Origin: Trypanosoma brucei
Taxonomy: Eukaryota
Length of the DNA: 64,000 nt
Reading direction: 5' to 3'
Assembly: GCA_000002445.1 (NCBI GenBank)
Contig: CP000071.1
Coordinates: forward strand, 800,001 to 864,000
Below the pieces are notes generated by a model that saw only the letters and a program-made list of their open reading frames with translations, was not told the DNA's origin and did not search any database. Below are positions 3,324 to 46,791 of this stretch, in pieces (the first letter of the stretch is position 1; every line of letters starts with the position of its first letter). The translations under genes were made by a program, and so were the position numbers.

Positions 3324-4088
3324 TTGCTTCCTTACAACCCTAACAACTATGGGAATGTTTGCTTAAGAATGATCCGACTGCACCGCAACTTGGAGGGGCC
3401 GTTCCAGTGTCGTTGCTTCCGCCGTAGTGCTACAACTCACCGCGTTGGCACCGGAGGAAATGTAGAGGGAGTCGTGGCTTCTTCTTACTCGTCCCACGCC
3501 AGAGACATAACTGCCTCTCCCACAGTTCCGACGCTCTGTGGAGATCGAGGTCATGATGGAAACGAACCTGAAGAGCCAGGGGGCGGGAAAAGGCAGAGGC
3601 AGCCTGAGCACGGAGCGGCAGCCGCGTCGTCTGCCACGTACAAAACAACGCGTAAACGAACTGCGGAGATCAAGGTAAGGAAGCGCGCTCCTTGGGGCAT
3701 GCAGCAACTACGTGATTCGTGGAGCGTGGACGCCATGACAAAGGGAGACAGAGAAAATATGAGCGAGCGTATTCACAGGGAATATCGTTACCACCCGGAG
3801 GAGTTCCGCCGGAACCACATTAAGGTGGCAGCGCTGCTCACAATCCCCGCGCTTTTAATTGGTGCGTTTAGTGGCTATTTCTATCAGACGGGGCGGCCCC
3901 TGTGGGAGGCTGATCCACAATACCTGTTGAATATGATAAGGCAGATGGATGCTTCACCGCGCAGCACGCTTCATCCCTACAAACTTGAGGAAACAGAGGT
4001 GCTCCCCGCGCACGTGAAGGCATACAGGGAAAAGAATTGGGAAAAACGTCTTTTATTGGAGGGCTATCCCCTTGCCACCGAACGGTGA
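3324..4088 (+). CDS. Hypothetical protein with one predicted TM segment (VAALLTIPALLIGAFSGYF)
   Basis: 254-aa + strand ORF in the same orientation as its neighbours. The N-terminal third is Arg/Gly-rich and may be UTR. No recognisable domain. Confidence 0.4.
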   Translation: MLPYNPNNYGNVCLRMIRLHRNLEGPFQCRCFRRSATTHRVGTGGNVEGVVASSYSSHARDITASPTVPTLCGDRGHDGNEPEEPGGGKRQRQPEHGAAAASSATYKTTRKRTAEIKVRKRAPWGMQQLRDSWSVDAMTKGDRENMSERIHREYRYHPEEFRRNHIKVAALLTIPALLIGAFSGYFYQTGRPLWEADPQYLLNMIRQMDASPRSTLHPYKLEETEVLPAHVKAYREKNWEKRLLLEGYPLATER

Positions 4089-28597: not shown

Positions 28598-29518
28598 ATG
28601 GGAGACTCGATATCACCTTCGGAATTACTTCCAGGGCACGCTGGGGAAGAACATTTCTTATCACTTGAAGAAGGAACGACTCCGCAGGTCCACCGGCAGG
28701 AAGTGACTACAGATGCAATGACAAACCTTCAACGGCGTAACGTTTATGTCTCTGGCCTCCCGGAAACGTACCGTGCTTCCGAGTTTCGTGATCTGTGTCA
28801 GTCGTTCGGTCGGGTGGAGGCGTCGAAACTCTGCGTTGACAGTAAGTGCCGGCCGGCGAAGGGTTATGGTTTTGCACTTTTCTTCGAGGAGGAGGACGCA
28901 TTGAAGTGCATCGAAGGACTTAACGGCCGAGTGCTTATGGGCGGCCGACCGTTGCAAGCACGAATAGCAGACGCCGCTGCAGCGCCCGCGCCACTGGACC
29001 CATCAATAGCCCACCCGCCCATTAGCCGCACGCGTCAGGGAATGAAAAGTCACCACCGACAGCTTGGCGCAAGCATCAGCAGCGGAAGCGGTCCTCTCGA
29101 CAGCTCCATCGTTCTCGGGCGGAGCATGTCCTTTTCCTCTCGAGATGATCTTACAGGCTCACAACTCGGGCTCGCAACAGCACTCATCCCGGGAACCGGA
29201 ACCCCATCGGCCCCGACAGCTCTGCACGCACCGATGCAAGCGCCAATTCACGGTGCAGGGGTCACACAACCACCAGGGGCCGTTGGTTACTCACTCGCGC
29301 CGTTCCCTGTGCCTGGTGGCTACATGCCTGTTGGGCACTCCTTCATTCCGCAACAAACTGTTGGCATGCCTCTATTTGTGACTATGCCACAAACCGCGCC
29401 CGTCTCCACTACTGTTGCACAGCAGGTCGTCGTCCCGACGACAGCAATTGTCGCACCGAACGGCTATACACCACAGCTTTGTTCATCGCTGGTGTATCCT
29501 CCGGTTCGAATGGAGTGA
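28598..29518 (+). CDS. RBP10: Single-RRM RNA-binding protein, candidate RBP10 ortholog. The ORF is open from 28451, but the start is taken at the Met at 28598, giving 306 aa.
   Basis: RRM with RNP2 VYVSGL and RNP1 KGYGFALF. C-terminal low-complexity Q/P/A-rich tail. It lies immediately downstream of the IP3R gene and is followed by a multi-kb low-complexity 3' region, which matches what I recall of T. brucei RBP10 (306 aa, ~7 kb 3' UTR). The ortholog assignment is from memory and unverified. Confidence 0.8.
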   Translation: MGDSISPSELLPGHAGEEHFLSLEEGTTPQVHRQEVTTDAMTNLQRRNVYVSGLPETYRASEFRDLCQSFGRVEASKLCVDSKCRPAKGYGFALFFEEEDALKCIEGLNGRVLMGGRPLQARIADAAAAPAPLDPSIAHPPISRTRQGMKSHHRQLGASISSGSGPLDSSIVLGRSMSFSSRDDLTGSQLGLATALIPGTGTPSAPTALHAPMQAPIHGAGVTQPPGAVGYSLAPFPVPGGYMPVGHSFIPQQTVGMPLFVTMPQTAPVSTTVAQQVVVPTTAIVAPNGYTPQLCSSLVYPPVRME

Positions 29519-30970
29519 TGGCACAGAGGGTAACGAAGTAGGAATTTTTGCCGCCAGCTGAGGTCGTTTACCTTGGGTTGGCTGTCATGGAGATAGGGAA
29601 GAGAGAAGCAACATCGCGTGCAAGGAAAAACGAACAGAAGAATCGATCCCTCCCCCCTCCATGAGTCCTTCTTCGTTTATAATTTCGGCTGTTGTTTTTG
29701 CTGTCACCTTTTTTTTTCTTCCTTCTCGTTCGCCACACCCTCTCCTCAACCTCCTTTACCTCCATGGATCTCTCGGCAGCAGTCCCCCTCCCCTCATTCC
29801 CCTCATGTTTTGGTGGTCGCCTTATTGGCACCTCTTTTCGTCATTTTTTCCCCCCACTTGCTGCAGTTCAAGGCGTATTTGTGGGGAGAGTAAAGAACAT
29901 AAGTGAAATCTGAAAACAATAGAAAAGAGAGATGAATTAATTAATGAATGAATGGGAGAAATAAGGAGGAGAGGTGGTGGAGAGCTGGGGAACTGTAATG
30001 AAGAAGAAAAAAAAGAAGAACGAGGGAAAGGTAGATTCAGTGGGGGAGACAAAACAGTGAAGAAGAATCTGGCGGAAAGCAACAATAAGTGTGAAAATGA
30101 GAACGAAGGTGTGAATGATTCTTCAGTTTAAGAAACCACACGTGAAGAAGGACAGAATATATAAATAAATATATCTATTTATATGTTGATGTCTCAGAAG
30201 AAAAAAAGCAAAGGAGGGGAGATAGAAGAGGTTTAAAGGGAGGAAGGAAGACAGGCCCTGAAACCAATAAAACAAAATAAATAAATAAAGAAACGCGAAA
30301 TCAAAACTGAAAATGCGAAAAAAAAAACGAAGAACAAGAAGGGTGCAATGAAGGAATGAACTCCACAGAGAGAATACCCGTTCAAACATTCTTTTCTTCG
30401 TTTTTCCCCTCCTCCTCTCCCCGACGCAACCGCCCCCCTTTTTTTTCTATAATTGGCTCTTCTGACCCACACCCCCTCACTTTCCTTCTCAAAGAACGGC
30501 ATCTTGTTTTCCCACCCTTTATTATTGTTAATTTCTTTTTTCGCTTTACTATTATTATTATTATTTACCACCCCATCACCGTTACTTTTAGTTGTTTTTT
30601 TTTTTTTTATGCCTCTCTCCTTTCATTTTTTTGCGCTTTTGCTCCTCCTTATTGGTTATGTAGAGCGATTTATATAAATCTAATATATATATATATATAT
30701 ATATTTGTATTCATATATTTTATGTCTTATATACATAACTACTTTCGCGCAGAAAAGGGAAAGAGGAAAGGAGAAGAAGGGGGAAAATAGAAAGCCCATG
30801 CACATATATATATATATATATTTATTTATTTGTTTATTTATTTATATATATATATATATGTATTCTTTGTACCTCCCTTTCGTTTTTACTTTGTTTTTTG
30901 TTTTACCTTTTTTTTGTTTCTACTTTGTTTCTTGTTTTGTTTACTGTTAGTCACTCCTTACTATTTTTAC

Positions 30971-31110
30971 CGCCTCTATTATTATCACTATTATTATTAT
31001 TATTATTACTATTATTATTCCTATTATTATTATTATTATTCCTATTATTATTATTATTATTATTCCTATTATTATTATTATTCCTATTACTACTGCTATT
31101 ATTATTGTTA
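30971..31110. repeat. Imperfect (TTA)n/(TAT)n microsatellite punctuated by CC (cctattattattatt... x4-5)
   Basis: Direct reading of the sequence. Confidence 0.9.
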
Positions 31111-33336
31111 TTTCTGGGGCTACTGCAGTGCTTTCCCTTTCTTTTTCTTTGGGTGTTCGCGTGGTTGAGATTGTGATGTGACTTCTGTTTGCTGACGATT
31201 GTTTGTTTCTATTTGATTGTGCCGGTGTCTGTTTTCCCCCACCCCCGTGATGTCACGAAGAAAAACAAAAATTAAATTGAAAAGTTTTTACTTCTCCTCG
31301 TCCAAAGCAATTGCTCTCCTCCTTCCTTTTCTCCACACGCGCGCACGTACGTAGTGAACTAATCAAAGAGTGAAGAAATAAAAATAAAAACACGCGTCGT
31401 GTTGTGGATCCCTTTTTCGGATCCAATTTGCGCTATTGCTTTTTTTTGTTAGTATTATTGTTTTGTGCTTTTTTTTTTCTTTTTCTGTGTGTGTAATATG
31501 ATTTTGTCGCTTTTCATTCAGCGGAAGCAGACAGTAAAGTTATGGGCTCATATGCTTGCATGTGCATTCCATCCGATATTGCGCGGGAGTTGTTGTTTTG
31601 TTTTGTTTTTCACACCTTCGTCCCTTTTTTTTTTCTTTTTGGTTTTTATTGTTTGTATATATTTTCATATTTATGTACATATATTAGGAGCAAATGCATG
31701 CGTGTTTGTGCTTTAACGCCCATGTGTGCGCCCCTTGGCTTGCTTTCCCACAAATACCCTTTCGAAACGCCTTACGGAAGCGGGGACAATATAATTAAGA
31801 AGAAAGGGAGATGGGGGGGAAAAAAAAAAGAGAAAGAGAAAGAGAAACACCGGCTCGTAGACATGAGGAGAGGAATCAAAAAAAAGACAATGAAATGAAA
31901 TAAAGTTAAGTGAAGTGAATTGAAACGAGGTAAGAATTTAAGAAGTTAAGAAAGCTGGTGACCCGCCGTCGCTTTTCTACTTCATTCCACTCTTTTTTTT
32001 TCTTCTTTTCTTTTTTTTCCCATCCTTTTCCTTTTTTTTTGCTAGTTTTTGATCCGCTTTGCCTTTGCATCTTATCTTTCCATTGCTCCCACTTTTTTTT
32101 TATTGTTTCTTTTTTTTTCCCCCTGTTGTTGTCACCATTATTATGTCATGTTATGTCATCGGTACTACGACAGTTGCATTATGATAGTTATTATTTTTGT
32201 TCTTTCTTTTTTGTTCTCGTTTTGTGACGTTGATGTTTGGTTTCATTTTTATTTTTGCGGTTACCTTTTTGTTTTTATTCGCTTTTTTTTTCCTTTTTGG
32301 TTTATTTATTTGTACTTGGTGAAAAGGAAAAAAAACAAAAAATATATATATATATAGATACAGAAGCAGAGGAAGAGAGAAAGAGAGAATGAATGAATGA
32401 ATGAATACGATGAAGAAGATATTGGAATAGAGGTGGAAAGGGAGGGGGAAAAAAAAAAAAGAGGAAAGGGTGACGCGGTTGAGTTGACGGTAAACAAAAC
32501 AGAAACGATAAGAAAAATAATGCACAAAATTCTTCCCCTTCTGTTCCTGTTTTTCGTTTCTTTGTTTGTTTTGTTTTGTTTCGTCTTCTGTTTGGTACCG
32601 CATCACCCGTTACCATGGCCCTCAATATGTCTTTATTATCATTATTATTATTATTATTATTATTACTATCCGTTACTGTTATCCTTCATTGGCATGATGT
32701 TTTTCCGCCGATATTTCACATCTTTTCATTGACTCTTATTATTTTTCACTTCATCCATGCCGACTCTGCAGTACTTGTAGAAATTTCATTGAAACAGTAT
32801 TTTGACGAAAAGGAAGCAAGAAAGTTAAAAATTAATGTAATGTAATGCAATGCAATGTAATGTAATGTAATAAAAAAGTAATAACAATGACAAACCTAAT
32901 AACTATCATAATTATAAGAGAAATTGAAAGAAAGGACAAGGTAGGGTGGAAAAGGAAGCAAAAGAGGGAGAAGGGGGTGAAAAAAAAAATTAATTGTTTA
33001 AGGCTTGAGAAGGGAAAACGGCACTGTAGTAGAGAATGAGAAGGAATAAAAATAAGTGCGTGAGTAAATGGATGAATCAACAACTAAGTGAATGAGCATT
33101 TTCATGTACACAAAAAAAAAAATGAAAAGACGTGTTTGACTCACAAAGGGGAGGAAGAATAGCATGAAAGGTAAATATTTGTGTCAGAATAAAAAAGAAA
33201 CTAAGAATAAAAAAGAAATAATAACAATAATAAAGTGAGGCAGAAAATGATGTTTCCACACCATTGGGATTGTTAAATGTTGCGATTTGGAGAGGAGGGA
33301 ACGCGTGTTGACTGACGTGGTGATGAAAATTTTTTT

Positions 33337-33371
33337 GTTTTGTTTTGTTTTGTTTTGTTTTGTTTTGTTTG
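33337..33371. repeat. (GTTTT)7 pentanucleotide microsatellite. A related (CTGTTTT)3 lies at ~33478-33512.
   Basis: Direct reading of the sequence. Confidence 0.9.
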
Positions 33372-36300
33372 AGGGTCACACGTGTTCCACAACTCCTCCT
33401 TTTGTTTTATTTTGTTTCCGCCCTCCCTCGTTCCCCCTTTCTGCGTTTCCCCTTTTTTTTTCTTTTTTTTTCTTTTTTTTTTTCTGTTTTCTGTTTTCTG
33501 TTTTGTTTTGTTTTTTTTTTTTGCATCCCATCGATTTGAGAGTTATAAAAGACGAGGAAAAGCGGAATGTTTCTCGTGCGACGAGAGCTGGACATGTAAA
33601 ACACAAAGGGAAATTAAGGAAGTAAATAAAAGTAAAAAAAAAAGAAAAGAAGAAAAACGAAAAAGAAAAAAGGAAAAAGGAAAAAAAAAAGCACCCGAGT
33701 GGGTAGAGGATATGCTGGCAATAGTGTGGTCAGTTTATTTTAAAGAGGGAATATGTGGAGGGAAGGGAAATTTTTTGAATATAAATATTTACTCCCACAA
33801 CATGCCGGAAATATATATTAATATTTGAAAAAAAAAAGAGAGAGAGAGAGAGAAAGAAAGAGATGGATTGGAAGGTAAGGTAAGGTAAAGAAGTAAAGTG
33901 AATGAAGCGCGTTGATAATAAATTAAGAGGAAATAAAAAATGTGAAGGATTTGAAGAAGTTTTGTTGGTGCTACTTTCAAGTGAAACTAAACAAAATATG
34001 TGAAGGACGTAATCAATATTTATTTGTTTGTTTGATGACGCTTCTATCCATCTGTCTTCCTTTTGCTTGTAATTTCACTTTTGTATTTTCCCTCCTTCCC
34101 CTCATCGTTTGTTTTTTCATACTTTTTTTACTTTTTTTTTGTGTTTGTATGGTTGGTTGTTCCGCGTATTGCGTTTAAAAAAAAAAAGTATTGAATAGCA
34201 TTGTCGTTCGTGGACCTGGCGCCCTATTTTTTTTTGTTTTTTTTTGTTTTGTTTTACTTTATTTTCACCTTGGATATGGGCATATGATACAAATAAAATA
34301 ATAATTAAAAAAGGGGAAGTGAGGCTTAGTGAACAAACGAAAAGGAAGTCAAATGAAATAATAATTTCTTTATTAAAGTGGTAAAAGAACAAGAATGACG
34401 TTAACGATGAAATGAGCTCCACATATGTCAGGTACTTGAAATCACGTAAAAGATAAAGAATGATTTAAAGGAAGATTAGAGAATATGAGGAGTTAGAAAA
34501 GAGCAAGTAAGTAAGGGTAAGTATATTCTAAGGGAAATGCTACTTGTACTTATAATTAATGACAATAATAGGGAGGGCAAACCAAATATATATAAATATA
34601 AATAAAGATATATATATATATATATATACATATATTTGATTAAAGGAGCGAGAGAAAAGGGGGGGCAGAAACGAACAAAATAAAGTTAGTGAAGGAAAAA
34701 AGAACTGAATAATAAGGTGCTTTCCTTACCGCATTTGTGAGCCACCCCTCATCCCCACATGTACGAGAGCATTTTTCATCGTTTTCGTTCCTCAACAAAC
34801 TTTTGTGCGATGAGGTGGTGGATGAGGAGTGGCAGTGCCAAAAGTAAACAAATGGATCTATATTTCCATTTTTGTTACTTATGAATGTTCACACCTTATC
34901 TTGTTTTTTTTTAAGTTTTCAGCCTTTTTTTTTCGTTTTTTTCTTTTAAATTGTGTGTGTGAGCTCTTTTTTTTTTTTACGCTTCCTCCCACCCCCATTG
35001 CGGGATCCGCTTTGCAAAGAGGAAATATTTTGAGGTATGTGGAGGGCTCCCGTGTCCTCATATATGTAAGCAGCGCTTTTTTTTCGTTATGCTAATTTGA
35101 AAAGGAATTTTCATGTATGTACATAGTTAATATAAAGAAATATATTTATATATTTATAATATACAATATATACAAGAAATATACATACATGTTTCTGTGA
35201 CCGTCTATCTAACTGTCTGACCATCTAATTGACTGACCGACTGGCTGTTTGTTTGTTGTTTTTTTTTTTTCGTTTGCGTGTAAACATAGATACATCATAA
35301 TGGAGTGGCCTCTCATGTGTATGTGCGGGTGCATCCATGTGTGCATGTCTCGTGTTTCCGTTTATTGTCATTATTATTGTTTGTATTCCTTGTTTCGCAC
35401 CTTGTGTGTGTTTGCTTGTTCGTGTTCGCCTACTTTTTTTTTTGCTTTTTTTTTGTTTTTGTTTTTCCTCCTTCCCTTTTATGTGAACCATGGCTATCAT
35501 TTCTTATTATTACTGACATTATAGCTATTGTTATTGTTTACTGTTGCTACTGACATTCCTCCCTGGGTGAATTTCAATTATTTGTGATCTCCTTCTCGTG
35601 TTTTTCCCCCATCTTCTTCAGTCTTTCCTTTTTCTTTTTTTTTGTCTGCTTCGTGTTGACGTTAGTTTTCTGTTTTTGATGTGCGTGCAGTTTTTGTTGT
35701 TTCAACTAAATTAATTTTTCTGTTTTTTCCTTGAGGTCCTGCGCGCGGTGGCGAGAAAAAACAAAAGTAAATGTCAAATAATGGCTGGTTTTTCGACAAG
35801 GTTAACAGAATTCAAAAGGAATAAACAGTTTTTAAAAGAGAAAAAAACGGTGAAATATATATATATATATATATATTTAAAGCTGACAGATATACAAATA
35901 CGTGTGTGATCCTGTGTGATTGTGTGTTTGTGCTCACATTAGAAAGTAAATAAACAAATTTAATGTGCTTTTCTGCCGTCGAAACTTCCCTCCGCTCCCG
36001 TGTTTTGTCTTTGACGTGATATGCAGTGTGCGGATGAGGTTGTTACCACTTTTCTTTTTGTTGTTGTTGTCGTTTCTTCGCTTTTTTTTGGGGGGGGGTT
36101 TCAGTTTTTGGCTTTTGGCTTTATTATTGCCGCTTAATGGATGGAGAAGGGAGAGGGAGGCGATAGAAGCAAAGAAGAGTTCTGTTTGTTTGCTCGCTGC
36201 GGACTTCTGTTCACTTTGATTTAATATCCGGAAAGGAGCAAAAAAAGAAAAGTATAATTCATTTGACATTTCTTGAGCAAGTCGTACAATGAGTGAGCAT

Positions 36301-36599
36301 ACAAATACTTGCAGCATCCGTTCTCTTCCCTCCTTAATCTTTCTCAGACTCTTCCCCTGTCATCTACTTTATTGTTTATTGTACTGTTCCCTTTCTATTT
36401 TGTTTCTGTTTTCGTTTGTGTTTGTGTTAAATCCGATAATCATCAACAGCATCTAACCGGTATTTTGTTTTATCCGTGGTAACGAAAAGAAAAAGAAAAA
36501 AGAGAGACAATAATATATCTCTGTTAATGCCCACGTTAAACTATATATTTTTGTAGGAAGGAGAGAAGAGGGTATGGACCTGCTAAGGGAATTACATAT

Positions 36600-36760
36600 T
36601 TGTTCCCTTCTGTATGAACCACACTTACCTACGGTTTTTGTTGTTTTTTTTTTGTCTTTGTTCCTCTTGTTTTGGTTTGGTTTTTTTTTTTGGTTTCGTT
36701 TCGTTTCTATTTCCTTTTTTTCTATTTGTTTTACGTCTTTGATTGTCTCGTTGCGCGGGA
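36600..36760 (+). promoter_or_regulatory. Long polypyrimidine block, candidate polyadenylation/trans-splicing signal at the end of the RBP10-like 3' region
   Basis: ~160 nt that are almost exclusively T/C (ttttgttgttttttttttgtctttgttcctcttgttttggttt...). Its function is inferred from the general trypanosomatid mechanism. Confidence 0.4.
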
Positions 36761-37771
36761 AGAGGAATACGAGTAAGGGGAGAGAACAGAAGAAAAGAAA
36801 AGGAGACAAGAAGAAAAAGGAAATTTTGTTTATTCCTTATGCTTTCAAAACTCTTTTCCCGTATCAGTGTGCGTGTACGTGTGTGACTGCCTCGATACAA
36901 CTGGTTTCACTTTCGTGCCCTATCATCTGCTCCTTCTCTTTACCTCTTTTTTTTTCTTTTTTCTGTTCCTTTCATTCTGCTCTCACGTTCAACAACCACA
37001 CAGTGAATTTTATTATTTATTAACTTTATTATTACGACAATATATATATATACGGTCGCTACTGTTAGCTTACCGTCAATATCAGTAACCATGTCACGCG
37101 GTTCACAAATGTTAAATTTAATAACAGTAATAAAACGAATATACAATTGAATAGACGTGCAGAAGTTTCGAAGTTAAGTCGAAAGAGCAAAAAAGTTAAA
37201 GAAAAAAATATGTAGAGGGTGGAGCCAACAATAACGTATGGGAGGAATGAATGTGCTTTATGTCCGTGACGGAGGCGTAAAATGATGATGAACTGAAGTT
37301 ATGGAAACTAACAAAATAAGGGAAAGGACATATATATATATATATATATGCGTGCATATATTGTGCCGGAAGGAAGCGGAAATATACACTGAAGCGTACC
37401 GGTCAAAAATTGAAAGTGCGGAACCCCGCGTCTCCGCGTAGTGTCACCTGTTATCCGCGCATTTTCTTAGTGTCTCTGCTTTTAGCGTTGCACATCACCT
37501 TTGCAACAACCGAGTTATCGCCGTTTCACACCTGTGGCACAGATTTTCGTGGCTCCTTCATGACACTTATGCTCACTTTACATCTCACCTGCCGTTTTTC
37601 ATCAAAAGTAAAGACCTTCCGTAGGGATGTTGAGGAACGAAATGACGAAGTATTAAGTCTGTCGTCACTGCGGACAGCTTCTGGCGTGGCACCAAAACAC
37701 TCCTACTGAAAGAGCTCAGTGACGCCGCGCTCGCCATTTGTGAGGCAGAGGGCCACAACGTCCAGTGCCTC

Positions 37772-38092
37772 GTGTACGATCGGTCCAAACGGGAAAATGT
37801 TCCCATGACAGAGGGCCGCGATGCGTGGTACAGCGACGTTGTAGAGACCCTCACGGCAAGTGAGCTCGCGGATTGCCCCGTTGTATGGATTGGGGCGGAG
37901 GATCCCCTTTTCCTCTTGTACACCTCTGGCAGCACTGGTAAACCCAAGGCAATCTTGCATACGCTGGGAGGTTACAATTCACTTTCTGTAATATGGTGCG
38001 CACACAGAATGAACTGCAGTTTCACCGCAGGGGGGCTGCTGTATTTTCCTGGTCTTGAACCAAATTTGCGCTCTCCACGGCGGAGACACTAG
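37772..38092 (+). pseudogene. Acetyl-CoA synthetase (AMP-forming, ANL superfamily) gene fragment or relic
   Basis: The 106-aa ORF contains the near-perfect AMP-binding signature DPLFLLYTSGSTGKPKAILHTLGGY, and upstream WYSDVV...SELADCPVVWIGAEDPLF resembles ACS. Similarity decays after GGY, and the ORF is bounded by stops. Full-length ACS is ~650 aa, so this is a truncated, degenerate remnant. Confidence 0.6.
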
Positions 38093-38280: not shown

Positions 38281-39459
38281 GTGAGTGGTGTTAACCTCTA
38301 TTTTCGTGCCCTTTGTCTCCAATCCCACACTGTCTCTGCTGTCTATTTAGGAAGCCAACGAATGGGTTGTCTCCCTCCCGACGATTTGGGGCCGTTTGTT
38401 TCAGACCATGTTGATGTTAACGAGGCGGAGCCTGTTCCCCTGAGTGACGAGGACCTCGATCTACTTGTGCGGTACTCCCTTCTCCCCACTGATGTCGTGA
38501 GAGAAGCGTGGGCCGTCTTCAACCACTACCGTGTAGTAGAGTGCCTCCGGGCCCAGCAGCGCCATTACGCTATGACAGGTCATTTACCACAGAAGTCAAC
38601 GGTGTCCATGTCAGCGAGGCCGTTTCCGGTGGCGGAATGTGGTGGGAAGCTCTTCACAACTCCGGTTAGGGCCGCCAGTGGCGATTGCAACGCGGTGAAA
38701 GAGGAGGAGAAGGCTCCAGTTAGTCCGAGAGATTGTGTGACCGGTGAAAATTCAGAATGCAGAAAGGAGGAAGTGGAGGTGGCGGTTTTGGGCGCGGAAG
38801 GCCTCCGGCAATTCTTTGAGGATACCGGAGCGCCGATCCCCACGCTTGAGGTGACTTCCTTTCTTCGGCGGATGTCACAGCCCCCTGTAGAGTACTTGCT
38901 GTACCAGCGTGCACTGGAAGAGAAACTGACTGGCGCTGCAGCAGCTGCTGCACCTCCCAGAGAGGAATCGCCAGGGGTTGGCCAAAGAAAAAAGTCTCCA
39001 CAAACTGATCAATCGAAGCACAACAAAGGCCAAAGTGTAGGGCGTGGTCAACGACCGAATAACAACACGAAATCGCTGAATATTCTCGTTGATGACCACA
39101 TCGACCTGTTGGAGGAACAGAGGGGTTCTGGAGGGGAAACGGTGACATTTCCGCTTTTCCTCTACATCTTGTCGAATGCTGAGTTGGGAAAAAATTTCAC
39201 CGCTGATGTCCGCGAGAGTGAAATAAATACCTTGTTTCGGACATTAGACGTGGATGGTGATGGCGTTGTTTCCGTGGACGATATCCAACGGCTACTGGAA
39301 GAGCGGTGCTCACTTGGAGACACGTTGTATGAGGACCGTGACATTCGGTACCTGCGAGGAATGAACCTAACTGAGCTGAAGGCTGCGCTGCGGGAGTGCG
39401 ATGTTGACGAGGACGGGGCGGTGAGACTAAACGACTTTCGCTCAGTTTTGAGTTCGTGA
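38281..39459 (+). CDS. EF-hand calcium-binding protein
   Basis: Two C-terminal canonical EF loops: DVDGDGVVSVDDIQRLLEE and CDVDEDGAVRLNDF. A poly(Y) tract (ctctccttaaccccccctcccccacctgcag) at 38203-38233 precedes it. The start is possibly the Met at 38359. Confidence 0.7.
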   Translation: MSGVNLYFRALCLQSHTVSAVYLGSQRMGCLPPDDLGPFVSDHVDVNEAEPVPLSDEDLDLLVRYSLLPTDVVREAWAVFNHYRVVECLRAQQRHYAMTGHLPQKSTVSMSARPFPVAECGGKLFTTPVRAASGDCNAVKEEEKAPVSPRDCVTGENSECRKEEVEVAVLGAEGLRQFFEDTGAPIPTLEVTSFLRRMSQPPVEYLLYQRALEEKLTGAAAAAAPPREESPGVGQRKKSPQTDQSKHNKGQSVGRGQRPNNNTKSLNILVDDHIDLLEEQRGSGGETVTFPLFLYILSNAELGKNFTADVRESEINTLFRTLDVDGDGVVSVDDIQRLLEERCSLGDTLYEDRDIRYLRGMNLTELKAALRECDVDEDGAVRLNDFRSVLSS

Positions 39460-39870
39460 GCTATACACAGCATTAGTTTCCTAGAGTATATGCAATTACC
39501 GGAGATCTCCAATTACCCTTACATATATATATATTATTTTTTCGACTCCTTTGTGAGTGGAAAAATTATGTGTAGGGTAGCAGGAGCTGAACTAATGTAT
39601 AGAACGTGGGTAAGAACATGGAAAGAAGGCAGTAACCGTCGTGAAAATGTTGTGCCGATGTGCACATTTGTGAGGCCTGATTTGTACTCGTCAGACGTGA
39701 GGGTCTACACCTCTGTTATACGCTGCGCTCACTCGCGTCCCCTATCTTATCCTTTATTTCTTTCACATCCGCATTCTTTCATTTTCGTTTCTTTTTTTAT
39801 TTTGCATGATGTCTTGTTCACGATAATCAATGTTAACCACCAATTTATCGGGTGGAGGGTCTTTGCAGAA

Positions 39871-42477
39871 ATGGGTGTCCCATTACTTCTCACTTGGTTA
39901 AGGCGACGGTTTGCGGCGTGTTTTCTCCCTAGCAACAGTAACGTGAGTGCCGACTGCTTGTACATCGATGTCAATGGACTGGTGTACCAGGCAGCCACCC
40001 TCGCTACTTCTGGTGGCGGGGACCCAGCAGACATCGAGGCAGCCATTCTGCGCAGACTGTTTGATCTCCTGGACGACATTGTGTTACGTCTCGTCCGGCC
40101 GCGCTCGCTGGTGTATCTGGCTGTTGATGGTATTTCACCCATGGGAAAACTCGCCCAACAGCGCTCACGACGACGACGGCGACGACGCCAGGACCCGCAT
40201 TCACACGTTCGTACCACGGAATGGGACAGCAACAGCATCAGCGTTGGAACGTCTTTCATGTCATCTCTGACGGATGCACTGCACTTTTATTGCGCAAGTC
40301 GCGCGGAGCGCATAAATGTGGAGCGGCTTCGTGAGTATAAGCAACGTGACGTTGGGAAAGACGTTGCAAGCGCTGGTTTCCCAGCCAACGAGAAAGCAGC
40401 ACCCTCGCTCATTACGTTTGTGTCAGATAACGTGTGGCGTCCCGGTGAGGGCGAGTCGAAGATCGCAGATGCCATACGGCGCTTTCGCTCGCAACCAAGC
40501 TATGATCCAAACACCGCGCACGTCATTTGTAGTTCAGACACGGATGTGACTGTGTGTTCTCTGATACTACACGAACCTAACATTCATGTACTGCGCTATG
40601 AACATGTTTCAGCTAGCACCGCCAAAGGTGGCAACAATAACTGGCAAACCTACGCAGGCGACAGCTGGGCGTCCACATTCTTCAGTATCTACGCTTTCCG
40701 TGAAGAACTTCGACTAAGGCTCCGGATAGAGCAAACTCGTAGTAACACTATGTCGGCTGAGGAGCTGGAAAAACTCAACAAACAGTTTGAGGCTGCTCTT
40801 CATGACGTGGTGTTTGTGTTGCTCTTGTTTGGAAACGACTTTTTACCATCCGTCGGATGTCGAATTGAGGAGGGCTTTCTTGACAGTCTCCTGGAGATGC
40901 TCGCCACTGACTTCGTTACACGGGGACGATCTATCGTTGATCCAGTTACTAACACCATTCAATTCGATGCTGCACGATACGCCCTGGAGTCTCTCGCAGA
41001 GATGCGCAACGAGCGTTCGAGTGGGCTCCAAGTTGACAACGGTGCAGAAGGTGCCGCAGATTGGGGGTTCGTTAATGAACAATTTCTGCAGCGGAAGGCA
41101 GCAGAGGAGGCAGAGAAGGCGCCTTGGTGTTACGCCTATTGGACAATGCTGCAGTGGTCACTGCAAAACAGCGCTGGTGTCGTGGAGCACTGGGGTTGCT
41201 ACTACCCCTATAGTACCGCGCCCCCGTTGCATCTGCTTCAAAAGTACTGCGGAACACTCTCATATGATGCCCTGATGGAGTTAGCGGAGAAGAGGAGCCG
41301 TAGGAAAGTTGGCCACCACAATCGGGCCCACGATGGGACTAACTCAGGCTCAGGGGAACGGGGGGTGAGGCTGCGGGGACCGGGGCCCACCGACGTGCTG
41401 GTGCAGCTGCTCGTCCTTCTGCCTACTCGTAGTATCGCGCTGCTCCCAACTGCAGTGCGAAAGGGATATTCGGAAATTGAGCCCATTGTAGTTGCCCCTG
41501 TGGAGGAAATCGACTTTGCTGCAGTCCAAACGTGGTGCGCAACGAAACGGGGGTTGTTCACGGAGGAGGAACGCGTGCGGTTCGATGCGTACGCACTCGC
41601 CGCGAGTGACCATCTGGTTGCGGGCGACGTGCATGCAAAATGTGTTCGGGGAAACGAGATGCTTTTTGTCGCTGACTGGAATGCTGAGGAGCTTGCCGCG
41701 GAGTTGAGAGAACTCGAGGAAATAGTGCAAGGTGGGGGTGGCACCCGCAGTGACGGATCGTCCAGTAGCAAAAAGCAGACAGACACCCTAAACAGTGCAA
41801 CCGGCGTTTTCACGTCTTTTTTCTCTGCGAGAAACGCAGGAAAGACATCGGCAGCGGTAGCAGCCTTACTTAGCGCCCCGAAATTCTCCAGAAATATCGG
41901 AGAGGGGGGCACCGGCAATGCCGACACTGTCACCACAAGCAGCGGCATCCCAAATATAAATGGCACCTCAAACAACACCGATAGAGATGTCTTACAGCAA
42001 TCGATTGACGTCGACGTGCTGAGTGCCGCAAACTTCACCTTTCATACTGTTTCGACATCAGCACTAAAGGGTGAATCGATGGTCCGTCGGGTTGGTAACA
42101 TCACTGGGGACACCTTCGAGTGTGGTTCGTACAGCGTCGGTCCGTTGTCGCGCAATCAGAAAACGATGCGCGTCAGATTGCGGTGGCGCGTTGCGTCCAG
42201 GCCGCCCCGAGACGCTGCACCATTTTTGCCGTATTTGCTTTCAGGCTTGAAGCCCCGGCAGAAAAGTGCAGAAGGTGATGGAACCGCCGGAAAGGAGGGG
42301 GTGAAGCGCCCCCGGTCGGAGGTAGCCAAATCGGCGGGGGATGATGACGCCAAGAAGAATGTTTTCGACGACTTCACACAGCAAACAATGTTACACGATA
42401 CCTTGCAGGAGAAAAAAGAGGCCCTGCGACGCCGTCTGGAGGCACTTCAGGGGGGAAATGCCACCCTGGGGACCTAA
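39871..42477 (+). CDS. XRN-family 5'-3' exoribonuclease (XRNB/XRNC-like size). The ORF is open from 39490, but the conserved start is MGVP at 39871.
   Basis: XRN N-terminal signature MGVP..(L)..WL..R. Catalytic-domain blocks LYIDVNGLVYQAA, LVYLAVDGISPMGKLAQQRSRRRRR and GEGESKIADAIR. The basic/acidic low-complexity C-terminus is typical of the family. 869 aa from MGVP. Confidence 0.85.
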   Translation: MGVPLLLTWLRRRFAACFLPSNSNVSADCLYIDVNGLVYQAATLATSGGGDPADIEAAILRRLFDLLDDIVLRLVRPRSLVYLAVDGISPMGKLAQQRSRRRRRRRQDPHSHVRTTEWDSNSISVGTSFMSSLTDALHFYCASRAERINVERLREYKQRDVGKDVASAGFPANEKAAPSLITFVSDNVWRPGEGESKIADAIRRFRSQPSYDPNTAHVICSSDTDVTVCSLILHEPNIHVLRYEHVSASTAKGGNNNWQTYAGDSWASTFFSIYAFREELRLRLRIEQTRSNTMSAEELEKLNKQFEAALHDVVFVLLLFGNDFLPSVGCRIEEGFLDSLLEMLATDFVTRGRSIVDPVTNTIQFDAARYALESLAEMRNERSSGLQVDNGAEGAADWGFVNEQFLQRKAAEEAEKAPWCYAYWTMLQWSLQNSAGVVEHWGCYYPYSTAPPLHLLQKYCGTLSYDALMELAEKRSRRKVGHHNRAHDGTNSGSGERGVRLRGPGPTDVLVQLLVLLPTRSIALLPTAVRKGYSEIEPIVVAPVEEIDFAAVQTWCATKRGLFTEEERVRFDAYALAASDHLVAGDVHAKCVRGNEMLFVADWNAEELAAELRELEEIVQGGGGTRSDGSSSSKKQTDTLNSATGVFTSFFSARNAGKTSAAVAALLSAPKFSRNIGEGGTGNADTVTTSSGIPNINGTSNNTDRDVLQQSIDVDVLSAANFTFHTVSTSALKGESMVRRVGNITGDTFECGSYSVGPLSRNQKTMRVRLRWRVASRPPRDAAPFLPYLLSGLKPRQKSAEGDGTAGKEGVKRPRSEVAKSAGDDDAKKNVFDDFTQQTMLHDTLQEKKEALRRRLEALQGGNATLGT

Positions 42478-42912: not shown

Positions 42913-45900
42913 ATGCCGCTATACAATATCACTATTCATCCGCTGAAGCTTGCTGCGCACTTCTGCAAACAGGGTTGTTCATACGTTGTCGTTGTTAACC
43001 GTAAGGGGGTGGAGCTGGCGACAAAACCCGCCATGTGTACCGTTGCCGATGAGGTGGCCTTCAGCACACCGGCGGAACTGAACCAGACCCGGACATTTCA
43101 ACTTGCCTTCGACTCACCCAAGGACCGACGTATGATCCAGTTTGCTATGTACGACGTTACCAATCCGAAGCATAGCATAAGGATCACAGGATTTGAAATC
43201 CCACTTGCGGGGATGTGCAGTGTGCTTGCCGGTGAGTCCATATGCGAAAGGAAGGCTGTCTCCTTCCGCATTTCTGGAAGGCCGGGGCGGTTGGACGTCA
43301 TTTTCCGCATGCACCCCACTACGAGCCCCGTACCCCCTCTGACGTTGTATGCGGGGCCGGCAACAGGTTCTGGAGGAAGCAGCTCACCAGTGGAAACAGT
43401 TCGCCTCCCCGCGCGCACCGTGGAGGTGCTTAAGAAGGTTGGTGTACTACCAAAAGATGTGGAAGAAGTTGAGGTGGACGCTGTCATCGCCCAGGAGGTT
43501 GTTGTGCGCACTTCCATGTTGTTTCCCAGTGAGGCCGAACTGCGTGAACGTGTGATGACGCTCGAACGTGAGGTAGCCCAACAGGAGTATAGCGTGCGGT
43601 ATGCTTCAAAGGACAGTGTGTCTTCAGGTTCGGCCGCTTGTGTTGCGCTGCGTAGCGAGCTTCAATACTGGAAGGACACTGTAGAAAGAGTGAATCTACA
43701 GTCAGCGCAAGAAACAGGGATTGCGTTGTTGCTTAAAGCTGGTGAAGAGGGTGAACACGACGACGGCAGTCGCGCCCTCATAGCCGATGTTGAAGGGCAA
43801 CTGGAGGAGGCGAGGAGAGAGCTAAAGACCATAGAAAGATCCCAGAATGATGAAGAGTTGAACACGAAATTAATTCCACTTCTCGGGCAGGTGGAGCAGT
43901 TGGAGGAGCTACTGGAACACCTCCGGAAGGAAGTACATGTACCACCCAAGACTGCGGGATCTAGTGAGAAAGCTGACGTCGTAGATCAGTGGGAACAACT
44001 TGCGCGCGAATTATTCGACAAGGAGCTGATGGTTGAACAACTTATGCACACAGTTCTTACACTCAACCAACTTCAGTTTGAACCATATCCTGCCGCAATT
44101 GAGATGGGCGCTGTTGGGGATACGCCATGTGAACTACAGTTCGTGCGTGACAACAAGAGACAGTTGAAGAACCTTCCTCAGGTCCCCACTCCTAAGCAAG
44201 CCACCGATCTCGCAGCAGCCTCCGGCGGTCCCACCAGTGACAACCTGCTGAACGATCTCTTCGGTTGTCCATCTCCCCCAAAACCAGTTCCACAACCGAC
44301 GGTACAGGCCGACGAGGTGACATCACAACCGCACTTCGAAAGAGAAAACGGGGGGCTTCCAGGCGCACCATCTGTTTTTTCTAGCGGTGTGGCCCCAATT
44401 TGGGGGCAAAAGCCAGTGGGGGCACCCCCCCAAGATGACGCTATGCAACCAGCGGCCACGGCAAACACTCTAGACACCACCGATGGCAAGGTCGGCGACA
44501 GCATGGCGTTCGAAAAGAAAACAACTGAACCGCAAATTATGGTCTCCGCCGGTCTTGCTGCAGCCGCCGCATCACCACCTGACACCCAAAACGGACAGCA
44601 GCTATCATTCCCATTTGACTCGAAGCAGCAGGGTCCAACACAGGGACAGCAGCAACCATTCCCATTTGACTCGAAGCAGCAGGGTCCAACACAGGGACAG
44701 CAGCAACCATTCCCATTTGACTCGAAGCAGCAGGGTCCAACACAGGGACAGCAGCAACCATTCCCACTGGGTTCGCAACAGCAGGGTCCAACACAGGGAC
44801 AGCAGCAACCATTCCCATTCGACTCGAAGCAGCAAGGTCCAACACAGGGACAGCAGCAACCATTCCCACTGGGTTCGCAACAGCAAGGTCCAACACAGGG
44901 ACAGCAGCAACCATTCCCATTTGACTCGAAGCAGCAGGGTCCAACACAGGGACAGCAGCAACCATTCCCATTTGACTCGAAGCAGCAGGGTCCAACACAG
45001 GGACAGCAGCAACCATTCCCATTTGACTCGAAGCAGCAGGGTCCAACACAGGGACAGCAGCAACCATTCCCACTGGGTTCGCAACAGCAAGGTCCAACAC
45101 AGGGACAGCAGCAACCATTCCCACTGGGTTCGCAACAGCAAGGTCCAACACAGGGGCAGCAGCAACCATTCCCATTTGACTCGAAGCAGCAGGGTCCAAC
45201 ACAGGGACAGCAGCAACCATTCCCATTTGACTCGAAGCAGCAGGGTCCAACACAGGGACAGCAGCAACCATTCCCATTCGACTCGAAGCAGCAAGGTCCA
45301 ACACAGGGACAGCAGCAACCATTCCCACTGGGTTCGCAACAGCAAGGTCCAACACAGGGACAGCAGCAACCATTCCCATTTGACTCGAAGCAGCAGGGTC
45401 CAACACAGGGACAGCAGCAACCATTCCCATTTGACTCGAAGCAGCAGGGTCCAACACAGGGACAGCAGCAACCATTCCCATTTGACTCGAAGCAGCAAGG
45501 TCCAACACAGGGACAGCAGCAACCATTCCCACTGGGTTCGCAACAGCAAGGTCCAACACAGGGACAGCAGCAACCATTCCCATTTGACTCGAAGCAGCAG
45601 GGTCCAACACAGGGACAGCAGCAACCATTCCCATTTGACTCGAAGCAGCAGGGTCCAACACAGGGACAGCAGCAACCATTCCCACTGGGTTCGCAACAGC
45701 AGGGTCCAACACAGGGACAGCAGCAACCATTCCCATTTGACTCGAAGCAGCAAGGTCCAACACAGGGACAGCAGCAACCATTCCCATTTGACTCGAAGCA
45801 GCAAGGTCCAACACAGGGACAGCAGCAACCATTCCCACTGGGTTCGCAACAGCAAGGTCCAACACAGGGACAGCAGCAACCATTCCCATTTGACTCGAAG

Positions 45901-46791
45901 CAGCAGGGTCCAACACAGGGACAGCAGCAACCATTCCCACTGGGTTCGCAACAGCAAGGTCCAACACAGGGACAGCAGCAACCATTCCCACTGGGTTCGC
46001 AACAGCAAGGTCCAACACAGGGACAGCAGCAATCATTCCCATTTGACTCGAAGCAGCAAGGTCCAACACAGGGACAGCAGCAACCATTCCCATTTGACTC
46101 GAAGCAGCAAGGTCCAACACAGGGACAGCAGCAACCATTCCCATTTGACTCGAAGCAGCAAGGTCCAACACAGGGACAGCAGCAACCATTCCCACTGGGT
46201 TCGCAACAGCAGGGTCCAACACAGGGACAGCAGCAACCATTCCCACTGGGTTCGCAACAGCAGGGTCCAACACAGGGACAGCAGCAACCATTCCCATTTG
46301 ACTCGAAGCAGCAGGGTGTACCGCAGACCCCGTCAGTGCCAGGACAACAGCAGCAATATATGGCCCCTCCAGAGACACCTGTTCCTCGGTATGTGCGACG
46401 TCCACTAGCGTCGGGAGTGTCTCCCTTTGCTCCTTTTATTAACATTCCCCTCGTAGCACGTGCTTGTCCCCTGGATATTTACCTTGATGGGCAGACCCCT
46501 ACACGCGGCACAGAGATTACCATTCAGAACAATGGTGGTTTTGACATTACTATTGGTGGGGTGGAGCTGCGGCAGGAAGACATGACATCAACTTCGCCGC
46601 ACGCAGGTCAAACTGTTCCCATACGTCGCTGGCCACAACAAATGCACGTACCGCGCGGCGGCGGTCGCGCTACATGCATTATTGCGCTGCACCCAAGTTA
46701 TGCTCGGGGGAGTTCGCTCATCCTCCTGGTCGTGGTGTATGTGCTGAATGAGGGTCGTTATACACCTTTTGCCGCCCGTTTTCCAGTATAG
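42913..46791 (+). CDS. Large repeat-containing protein. It has an N-terminal globular region, a coiled-coil segment, ~34 tandem 17-aa Q/P-rich repeats, then a C-terminal region.
   Basis: 1292-aa ORF. A heptad-like charged region (residues ~200-330) comes before the repeat array. The repeat unit is [17 protein letters not shown] with the variant [17 protein letters not shown]. Confidence 0.8.
44590..46316 (+). repeat. 51-bp tandem repeat array, ~34 copies, in frame inside the CDS
   Basis: Unit ccattcccatttgactcgaagcagcagggtccaacacagggacagcagcaa. Two unit variants alternate irregularly: gactcgaag (FDSK) and ctgggttcgcaa (LGSQ). There are synonymous cagcaa/cagcag differences. All six frames are open across the array because the unit has no stop codon. 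Confidence 0.95.

What the first reader, a model, noticed from the sequence alone, without database searches (positions are those of the whole stretch)
37772..38092. Orphan acetyl-CoA synthetase fragment between the RBP10-like UTR and the EF-hand gene
A 106-codon ORF carries the ANL-superfamily AMP-binding signature almost perfectly (LYTSGSTGKPKAILHTLGGY) plus ACS-like upstream residues. It is only about one sixth of a full ACS, loses similarity right after the motif and is flanked by stop codons. This looks like a relic left by a segmental duplication or translocation of an ACS gene. Alternatively it could be expressed as part of the 5' region of the downstream mRNA.
Basis: seen in the sequence. 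Interest (0 to 1): 0.55.

Follow-up and report, generated by a model that had tools for sequence, protein, structure and literature searches.

The report
Known truncated acetyl-CoA synthetase pseudogene relic
The fragment is real but ordinary: it is the already annotated Trypanosoma brucei pseudogene Tb927.8.2790, a 105-codon leftover of an acetyl-CoA synthetase gene that related parasites still have intact at this same chromosomal spot.

Summary
Window 37661-37978 (+) encodes about 105 residues that match residues 203-307 of trypanosomatid acetyl-CoA synthetase (ACS). Identity to T. cruzi ACS is 69.5% (tblastn E=2e-45). The match to a Leishmania ACS structure has E=8e-33, and Pfam AMP-binding scores above its cut-off.

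No other ACS piece exists in any frame of the 64 kb.

The window is T. b. brucei TREU927 chromosome 8. The literature already names the gene after RBP10 as Tb927.8.2790, an ACS pseudogene. The essential full-length AceCS is Tb927.8.2520.

What I add is synteny. T. cruzi, T. theileri, T. grayi, L. mexicana and Angomonas all have an intact ACS immediately upstream of the same EF-hand and XRNC genes, on the same strand. T. vivax has a different ACS scrap (residues 34-116, with an in-frame stop) at that position.

So this is most likely decay in place of an ancestral ACS copy, not a translocated piece. It cannot be an enzyme. Whether gene conversion from Tb927.8.2520 shaped it is untested.

Already known; low interest.

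The parts
37661..37978 (+). ACS-homologous tract (106 codons), equal to residues 203-307 of T. cruzi ACS and 237-342 of Leishmania ACS. It contains the ANL A3/P-loop motif YTSGSTGKPK.
   Evidence: At the DNA level it is 66-67% identical to the T. cruzi and T. theileri ACS genes, E about 1e-35.
37646..38092 (+). Whole stop-to-stop open frame holding the relic. It runs from just after the TGA at 37643-37645 to the TAG at 38090-38092. In-frame ATGs lie only at 37805 and 38009.
37979..38092 (+). Non-homologous read-through tail (38 codons including the stop) after the 3' deletion breakpoint.
   Evidence: similarity ends at GGY.
37772..38092 (+). The start is mechanical and is not a homology boundary.
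28598..29518 (+). Context: RBP10 (RRM protein, 306 aa). Its long 3'UTR fills most of the gap up to the relic.
   Evidence: 306-aa call in L001/L002; literature.
38362..39459 (+). Context: EF-hand gene (Tb927.8.2800 per the literature). It is the conserved downstream neighbour of ACS across trypanosomatids.
39871..42477 (+). Context: XRNC. It is 100% identical to the T. b. brucei TREU927 protein and served as the anchor for the synteny look-ups.

Best explanation
This is the annotated, non-functional pseudogene Tb927.8.2790 of T. brucei. It is most likely a remnant, decayed in place, of an ancestral acetyl-CoA synthetase gene that lay directly upstream of the EF-hand gene and XRNC. T. brucei keeps a full-length, essential AceCS elsewhere on the chromosome (Tb927.8.2520), so this copy was dispensable. 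Deletions removed codons 1-202 and everything after codon 307. What remains is a 105-codon in-frame core followed by 38 unrelated codons up to the first stop. The piece holds only the P-loop (A3) motif. It lacks the ACAS_N domain, the remaining adenylation motifs and the whole C-terminal domain with the catalytic lysine, so it cannot make acetyl-CoA. According to published work it is still transcribed, because it lies inside a polycistronic unit. SHOWN here: homology and its extent, the absence of other pieces, the syntenic position, and the separate T. vivax relic. FROM THE LITERATURE: the gene names, the transcripts, and the essentiality of Tb927.8.2520. INFERRED: the order of events and the redundancy argument.
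For: Homology. No other ACS fragments in any frame. Identity of the window: XRNC is 100% identical to the TREU927 protein, and RRM, EF-hand and XRN_N genes flank the relic. Literature: the gene just downstream of RBP10 is Tb927.8.2790, annotated as an ACS pseudogene, with a complete ACS elsewhere. [quoted passage not shown] AceCS Tb927.8.2520 is essential by RNAi. Synteny: an intact ACS of 676-713 aa with ACAS_N, AMP-binding and AMP-binding_C lies directly upstream of the EF-hand and XRNC genes, on the same strand, in T. cruzi, L. mexicana and T. theileri. tblastn confirms the same in T. grayi and Angomonas. T. vivax has an 83-codon ACS scrap (residues 34-116, with an in-frame TAA) 224 nt upstream of its EF-hand gene, in two assemblies. 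Relaxed constraint: 12 of 60 positions invariant in four functional ACS proteins are changed, for example KPIPLK to KTLLLK. The functional trypanosome sequences show 0-5 private changes and Leishmania shows 8. The relic is present with the same stops in T. b. gambiense and a third assembly, so it is not an assembly artefact.
Against: The fragment has no stop or frameshift over 105 codons. Its differences from functional ACS genes are still concentrated at third codon positions, as in functional-versus-functional pairs. It therefore evolved as coding sequence for most of its history. Neutral decay since before the T. brucei / T. vivax split would not leave this pattern. Either the loss is fairly recent and independent in the two species, or the intact paralogue has overwritten the relic by gene conversion. 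I could not obtain the Tb927.8.2520 sequence to decide. The genes upstream of the relic (RBP10 and others) are not those upstream of ACS in T. cruzi, T. theileri, Leishmania or Angomonas (SET, FtsJ). A rearrangement therefore also touched this junction.
Confidence: 0.85

Rival explanations
1. It is a partial copy of the intact AceCS gene Tb927.8.2520, placed here by segmental duplication or translocation.
For: A full-length ACS exists on the same chromosome. The fragment still looks coding-like. Probes for the pseudogene coding region apparently cross-hybridised with the full-length mRNA. Synteny upstream of the relic is broken relative to other species.
Against: A translocated piece would have to land by chance at the exact ancestral ACS position, on the same strand, directly upstream of the EF-hand and XRNC genes. 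T. vivax has an independent, non-overlapping ACS scrap at the same place. The 12 changes at otherwise invariant sites argue against a very recent copy of a functional gene.
Confidence: 0.07
2. It is a relic in place, as in the best explanation, but it stays recognisable because of occasional gene conversion from Tb927.8.2520 rather than because the loss was recent.
For: Substitutions are dominated by third positions and there are no indels over 105 codons. The T. vivax scrap shows no excess of changes at invariant sites (3 of 34) even though the loss seems to be shared by both African species.
Against: The 12 of 60 changed invariant sites in T. brucei mean any conversion was not recent. Independent recent loss in two lineages explains the data equally well.
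Confidence: 0.2
3. The fragment, or the RNA carrying it, has a present-day function. It might be a small translated protein (95 aa from the ATG at 37805), a regulatory non-coding RNA, or a processing element at the RBP10 / Tb927.8.2800 junction.
For: Transcripts covering the pseudogene are detected in both life-cycle stages, and DRBD3 binds them. The frame is open for 148 codons.
Against: A P-loop segment cut from the middle of the ACS N-terminal domain has no plausible independent fold or activity. Divergence within T. brucei is not significantly lower than in the flanks (0.3-0.6% against about 1.0-1.2%; Fisher p=0.47 and 0.54). The three substitutions in L002 are all non-synonymous. No Rfam family matches. 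T. vivax keeps a different piece that carries a stop codon, so no common element is conserved. AceCS RNAi is lethal despite the pseudogene.
Confidence: 0.06

Closest known systems
Tb927.8.2790, annotated acetyl-CoA synthetase pseudogene of T. brucei TREU927
   Same: Same object. [quoted passage not shown] The window's XRNC is 100% identical to the TREU927 protein.
   Different: Nothing differs. I could not see the database record itself, so its annotated coordinates were not compared with 37646-38092.
AceCS Tb927.8.2520 (functional, essential cytosolic AMP-forming acetyl-CoA synthetase of T. brucei)
   Same: Same protein family and same chromosome. It is the presumed surviving paralogue.
   Different: It is full length (74 kDa) and essential. 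The relic covers only about 15% of such a protein. Their sequence relationship was not tested here.
Intact ACS at the ACS-EF-hand-XRNC locus of other trypanosomatids (T. cruzi L003:4509-6542; L. mexicana L007:4616-6757; Leishmania ACS structure PDB 8sf3)
   Same: Same position and same strand, with 53-70% amino-acid identity over the retained segment.
   Different: Those genes are complete, 676-713 aa with three Pfam domains. Leishmania also has a second ACS (LmjF23.0710 / LmxM.23.0710).
Non-processed pseudogene relics left by loss of one of two paralogues
   Same: It is truncated, sits at the ancestral position, evolves under relaxed constraint, and is still transcribed passively within a polycistronic unit.
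   Different: Only a clean in-frame core survives. Two related species kept non-overlapping pieces.

Membership tests
AMP-forming acetyl-CoA synthetase (ANL superfamily), as a functional enzyme | A3 / P-loop motif (T/S)SG(S/T)TGxPK | tested here: met
   YTSGSTGKPK is intact.
AMP-forming acetyl-CoA synthetase (ANL superfamily), as a functional enzyme | Complete N-terminal adenylation domain, including ACAS_N and the later core motifs (for example WWQTETG) | tested here: not met
   Pfam matches only positions 112-197 of the 384-position AMP-binding model and gives no ACAS_N hit. tblastn finds nothing outside residues 203-307.
AMP-forming acetyl-CoA synthetase (ANL superfamily), as a functional enzyme | C-terminal domain (AMP-binding_C) with the A10 catalytic lysine (PKTRSGK) | tested here: not met
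   It is absent in all frames of the window. It is present in the T. cruzi, T. theileri and L. mexicana genes.
AMP-forming acetyl-CoA synthetase (ANL superfamily), as a functional enzyme | Uninterrupted ORF of about 650-710 codons | tested here: not met
   The open frame is 148 codons, of which 106 are homologous.
Non-processed pseudogene at the ancestral locus | Significant homology to a functional gene family | tested here: met
   E=2e-45 and E=8e-33.
Non-processed pseudogene at the ancestral locus | Disabling lesions (truncation) | tested here: met
   The 5' and 3' parts are missing. The T. vivax counterpart also has an in-frame stop.
Non-processed pseudogene at the ancestral locus | Same position and orientation as intact orthologues in related genomes | tested here: met
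Non-processed pseudogene at the ancestral locus | Relaxed selective constraint | tested here: inconclusive
   12 of 60 invariant sites are changed. However, the codon-position pattern is still coding-like, and within-species divergence is uninformative.
Non-processed pseudogene at the ancestral locus | A functional copy elsewhere in the same genome | not testable with these tools
   This rests on the literature only: Tb927.8.2520. Its sequence could not be retrieved.

The most novel reading that the evidence does not exclude
The two ACS copies on this chromosome (intact Tb927.8.2520 and relic Tb927.8.2790) may mark the recombination points that re-ordered this region between African trypanosomes and other trypanosomatids. 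The relics in T. brucei and T. vivax may stay coding-like through gene conversion. Alternatively, the DRBD3-bound transcript carrying the relic may have been co-opted as a regulatory RNA at the RBP10 locus.
Probability: 0.1. Interest if true: 0.4.

Novelty: already known. Interest (0 to 1): 0.12.

Why it matters
It matters little. The practical value is for annotation and for experiments at the RBP10 locus. Probes or RNAi fragments from this part of ACS can cross-react with the essential AceCS mRNA. The relic also marks the boundary between the long RBP10 3'UTR and the Tb927.8.2800 transcript. The synteny result gives a small, tidy example of paralogue loss in African trypanosomes, and it places the pseudogene at a break in gene order.

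Tried and rejected
(1) I tried to fetch the T. brucei full-length ACS. The search for homologous proteins with the 144-aa fragment returned only proteins of 252 aa or less, none of them kinetoplastid. The exhaustive representative search returned fragments and NRPS proteins but no full-length trypanosomatid ACS. Comparison with Tb927.8.2520 was therefore impossible.

(2) Exact look-ups of the window's own EF-hand protein and of TREU927 XRNC found no record. The TREU927 contig itself was not retrieved.

(3) I searched for frame-shifted ACS pieces with two full-length ACS queries, word size 2 and E up to 10. There were none.

(4) I tested whether window ORFs 739-1998 and 3324-4088 are the SET and FtsJ neighbours seen in T. 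cruzi. ORF 739-1998 shares only a SET-motif match with the T. cruzi SET protein. ORF 3324-4088 shows no similarity to the T. cruzi FtsJ protein.

(5) I compared the RBP10 3'UTR at the DNA level with the T. vivax upstream region, to see whether T. vivax shares the RBP10-relic arrangement. Only low-complexity hits appeared, and the 10-kb flank was too short to reach an RBP10 gene.

(6) An Rfam scan of 29.5-39.5 kb found nothing.

(7) A search for copies of the relic region elsewhere in the window found none.

(8) A test of within-species constraint was not significant.

(9) Literature searches for the neighbours of Tb927.8.2520 were uninformative.

Full report
**What is in the sequence.** Its translation reads SVVTADSFWRGTKTLLLKELSDAALAICEAEGHNVQCLVYDRSKRENVPMTEGRDAWYSDVVETLTASELADCPVVWIGAEDPLFLLYTSGSTGKPKAILHTLGGY, followed by 38 unrelated codons.

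Pfam AMP-binding (PF00501) matches at 41.9 bits against a cut-off of 29.9, covering model positions 112-197 of 384. phmmer against all PDB chains puts acetyl-CoA synthetases at the top. The best is 8sf3_A, residues 237-342, E=8.1e-33. Its aligned segment is almost identical to the L. mexicana ACS retrieved later.

The similarity therefore spans 106 residues (37661-37978), not only the 20-residue motif. It begins 37 codons upstream of the GTG that the mechanical ORF call uses.

**Is there more of the gene?** I obtained full-length trypanosomatid ACS proteins from syntenic loci: T. cruzi, 677 aa, and L. mexicana, 713 aa. I ran tblastn against the whole window with permissive settings. There is one hit only, residues 203-307 at 37661-37975, 69.5% identity, ungapped, E=2.3e-45. 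Every other hit has E>0.4. Nor is the other one, that the similarity is motif-only. The relic region is unique within the window and matches no Rfam family.

**Where the window comes from, and what is already known.** The XRN-domain protein at 39871-42477 is 100% identical to XRNC of T. b. brucei TREU927. The neighbours are an RRM protein with a very long downstream non-coding stretch, an EF-hand protein, XRNC and a CAF1-family nuclease.

[quoted passage not shown] They say a complete ACS gene lies elsewhere, that RNA-seq reads cover the pseudogene in both life-cycle stages, and that the next gene, Tb927.8.2800, is processed independently. The functional enzyme is AceCS Tb927.8.2520, a 74 kDa protein that is essential by RNAi. 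The finding is therefore an already annotated feature.

**Origin: synteny.** I used XRNC orthologues as anchors and fetched the region from other species.
- T. cruzi (two strains): SET, FtsJ, hypothetical gene, ACS (677 aa; ACAS_N, AMP-binding, AMP-binding_C), EF-hand, XRNC, all on one strand.
- T. theileri: the same order, with a 676-aa ACS.
- L. mexicana: SET, FtsJ, ACS (713 aa), EF-hand-like gene, XRNC.
- T. grayi and Angomonas deanei: a full ACS upstream of the EF-hand gene, confirmed by tblastn.

Downstream of the relic, T. brucei is collinear with all of them. The T. brucei fragment thus lies on the same strand at the position where an intact ACS sits in both Trypanosoma and non-Trypanosoma lineages. 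That makes a remnant in place far more parsimonious than a piece that moved here.

T. vivax, another African trypanosome, has no ACS gene there. It has an 83-codon scrap matching ACS residues 34-116 (65% identity, E=1e-34), with an in-frame TAA, 224 nt upstream of its EF-hand gene. The scrap is present in two independent assemblies. It does not overlap the part kept by T. brucei.

**State of decay.** Sixty positions in the segment are invariant across the four functional ACS proteins. The T. brucei relic has changed 12 of them, for example KPIPLK to KTLLLK and CPxEW to CPVVW. The comparable counts of private changes are 0-5 for the functional trypanosome sequences and 8 for the Leishmania outgroup. 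This fits relaxed constraint.

On the other hand, there is no indel or stop over 105 codons. Differences from functional genes are still mostly at third codon positions. The ratio of first-plus-second to third position differences is 0.61-1.00, against 0.60-0.94 among functional pairs.

The segment therefore spent most of its history under coding constraint. Either inactivation is fairly recent and independent in T. brucei and T. vivax, or the intact paralogue has occasionally converted the relic. I could not test this, because no tool gave me Tb927.8.2520.

Within T. brucei the relic is conserved in T. b. gambiense and a third assembly at 99.3-99.8%, with the same stops. Its divergence does not differ significantly from the non-coding flanks.

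**Upstream junction.** The SET, FtsJ and hypothetical genes that precede ACS in the other species are not in the window. In T. brucei the upstream neighbour is RBP10 with its long 3'UTR, so gene order is broken immediately 5' of the relic.

Phytomonas has an RBP10-like RRM gene a few kb upstream of an ACS 3' end that abuts an assembly gap. The RBP10-ACS adjacency may therefore also be old.

Leishmania has a second ACS on the same chromosome (LmjF23.0710 / LmxM.23.0710). From my own memory, not tested here, that copy lies near the thiolase gene, as Tb927.8.2520 does near Tb927.8.2540. This would fit two ancient ACS loci, of which African trypanosomes kept one.

**Function.** The relic holds only the P-loop. 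It lacks ACAS_N, most of the adenylation domain and the C-terminal domain with the catalytic lysine. It cannot be an ACS. The lethality of AceCS RNAi shows that it does not substitute for the enzyme. It is transcribed because it lies in a polycistronic unit. Nothing here indicates a function for the RNA or for a peptide.

**Verdict.** The feature is already known, and interest is low.

Noticed in passing
L005:8038-8286 (T. vivax; also L006:3440-3688): A second, non-overlapping ACS relic (residues 34-116, 65% identical to T. cruzi ACS) with an in-frame TAA. It lies 224 nt upstream of the T. vivax EF-hand gene.
   Followed up: yes
L012:882-1199 and L012:6589-6834 (Phytomonas sp. Hart1): An RBP10-like RRM gene (49% identity over 114 aa to T. 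brucei RBP10) lies upstream of an ACS C-terminal end that abuts a 1154-N assembly gap. The gap looks too short for the rest of the gene, so it is unclear whether the Phytomonas ACS is intact.
   Followed up: partly
window 44593-46317: A 51-bp tandem repeat of about 34 copies (92% matches) lies inside the 1292-codon gene at 42913-46791. It explains the many overlapping long ORFs in other frames. The T. b. gambiense orthologue is called at 1547 aa, which suggests copy-number variation.
   Followed up: partly
window 38362-38370: The EF-hand protein starts with MGC, a typical N-myristoylation/palmitoylation start. This fits its description as a flagellar protein in the literature. Orthologues are only 30-42% identical across species.
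   Followed up: no
window 29519-37657: The roughly 8-kb non-coding stretch after RBP10 is the most divergent region between T. brucei subspecies (1.2-1.6% mismatches plus many indels). It contains a (TAT)45 array at 30977-31112 and (AT)n runs at about 37040 and 37335.
   Followed up: no
window 39490-39870: The mechanical XRNC ORF extends 127 codons upstream of the conserved start at 39871. T. b. gambiense is annotated with a 960-aa product, against 868 aa in TREU927 and L002, so the start-site annotation is inconsistent.
   Followed up: no
L011:2291-4333 (Angomonas deanei): The ACS is called as 548 aa without ACAS_N, but tblastn similarity begins about 400 nt upstream of the called start. The gene call is probably truncated at the N terminus.
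   Followed up: partly
L003, L009, L010, L011 downstream of XRNC: T. cruzi, T. theileri, T. grayi and Angomonas carry one or two GFO_IDH_MocA oxidoreductase genes downstream of XRNC. These have no counterpart in the T. brucei window or in T. vivax.
   Followed up: no
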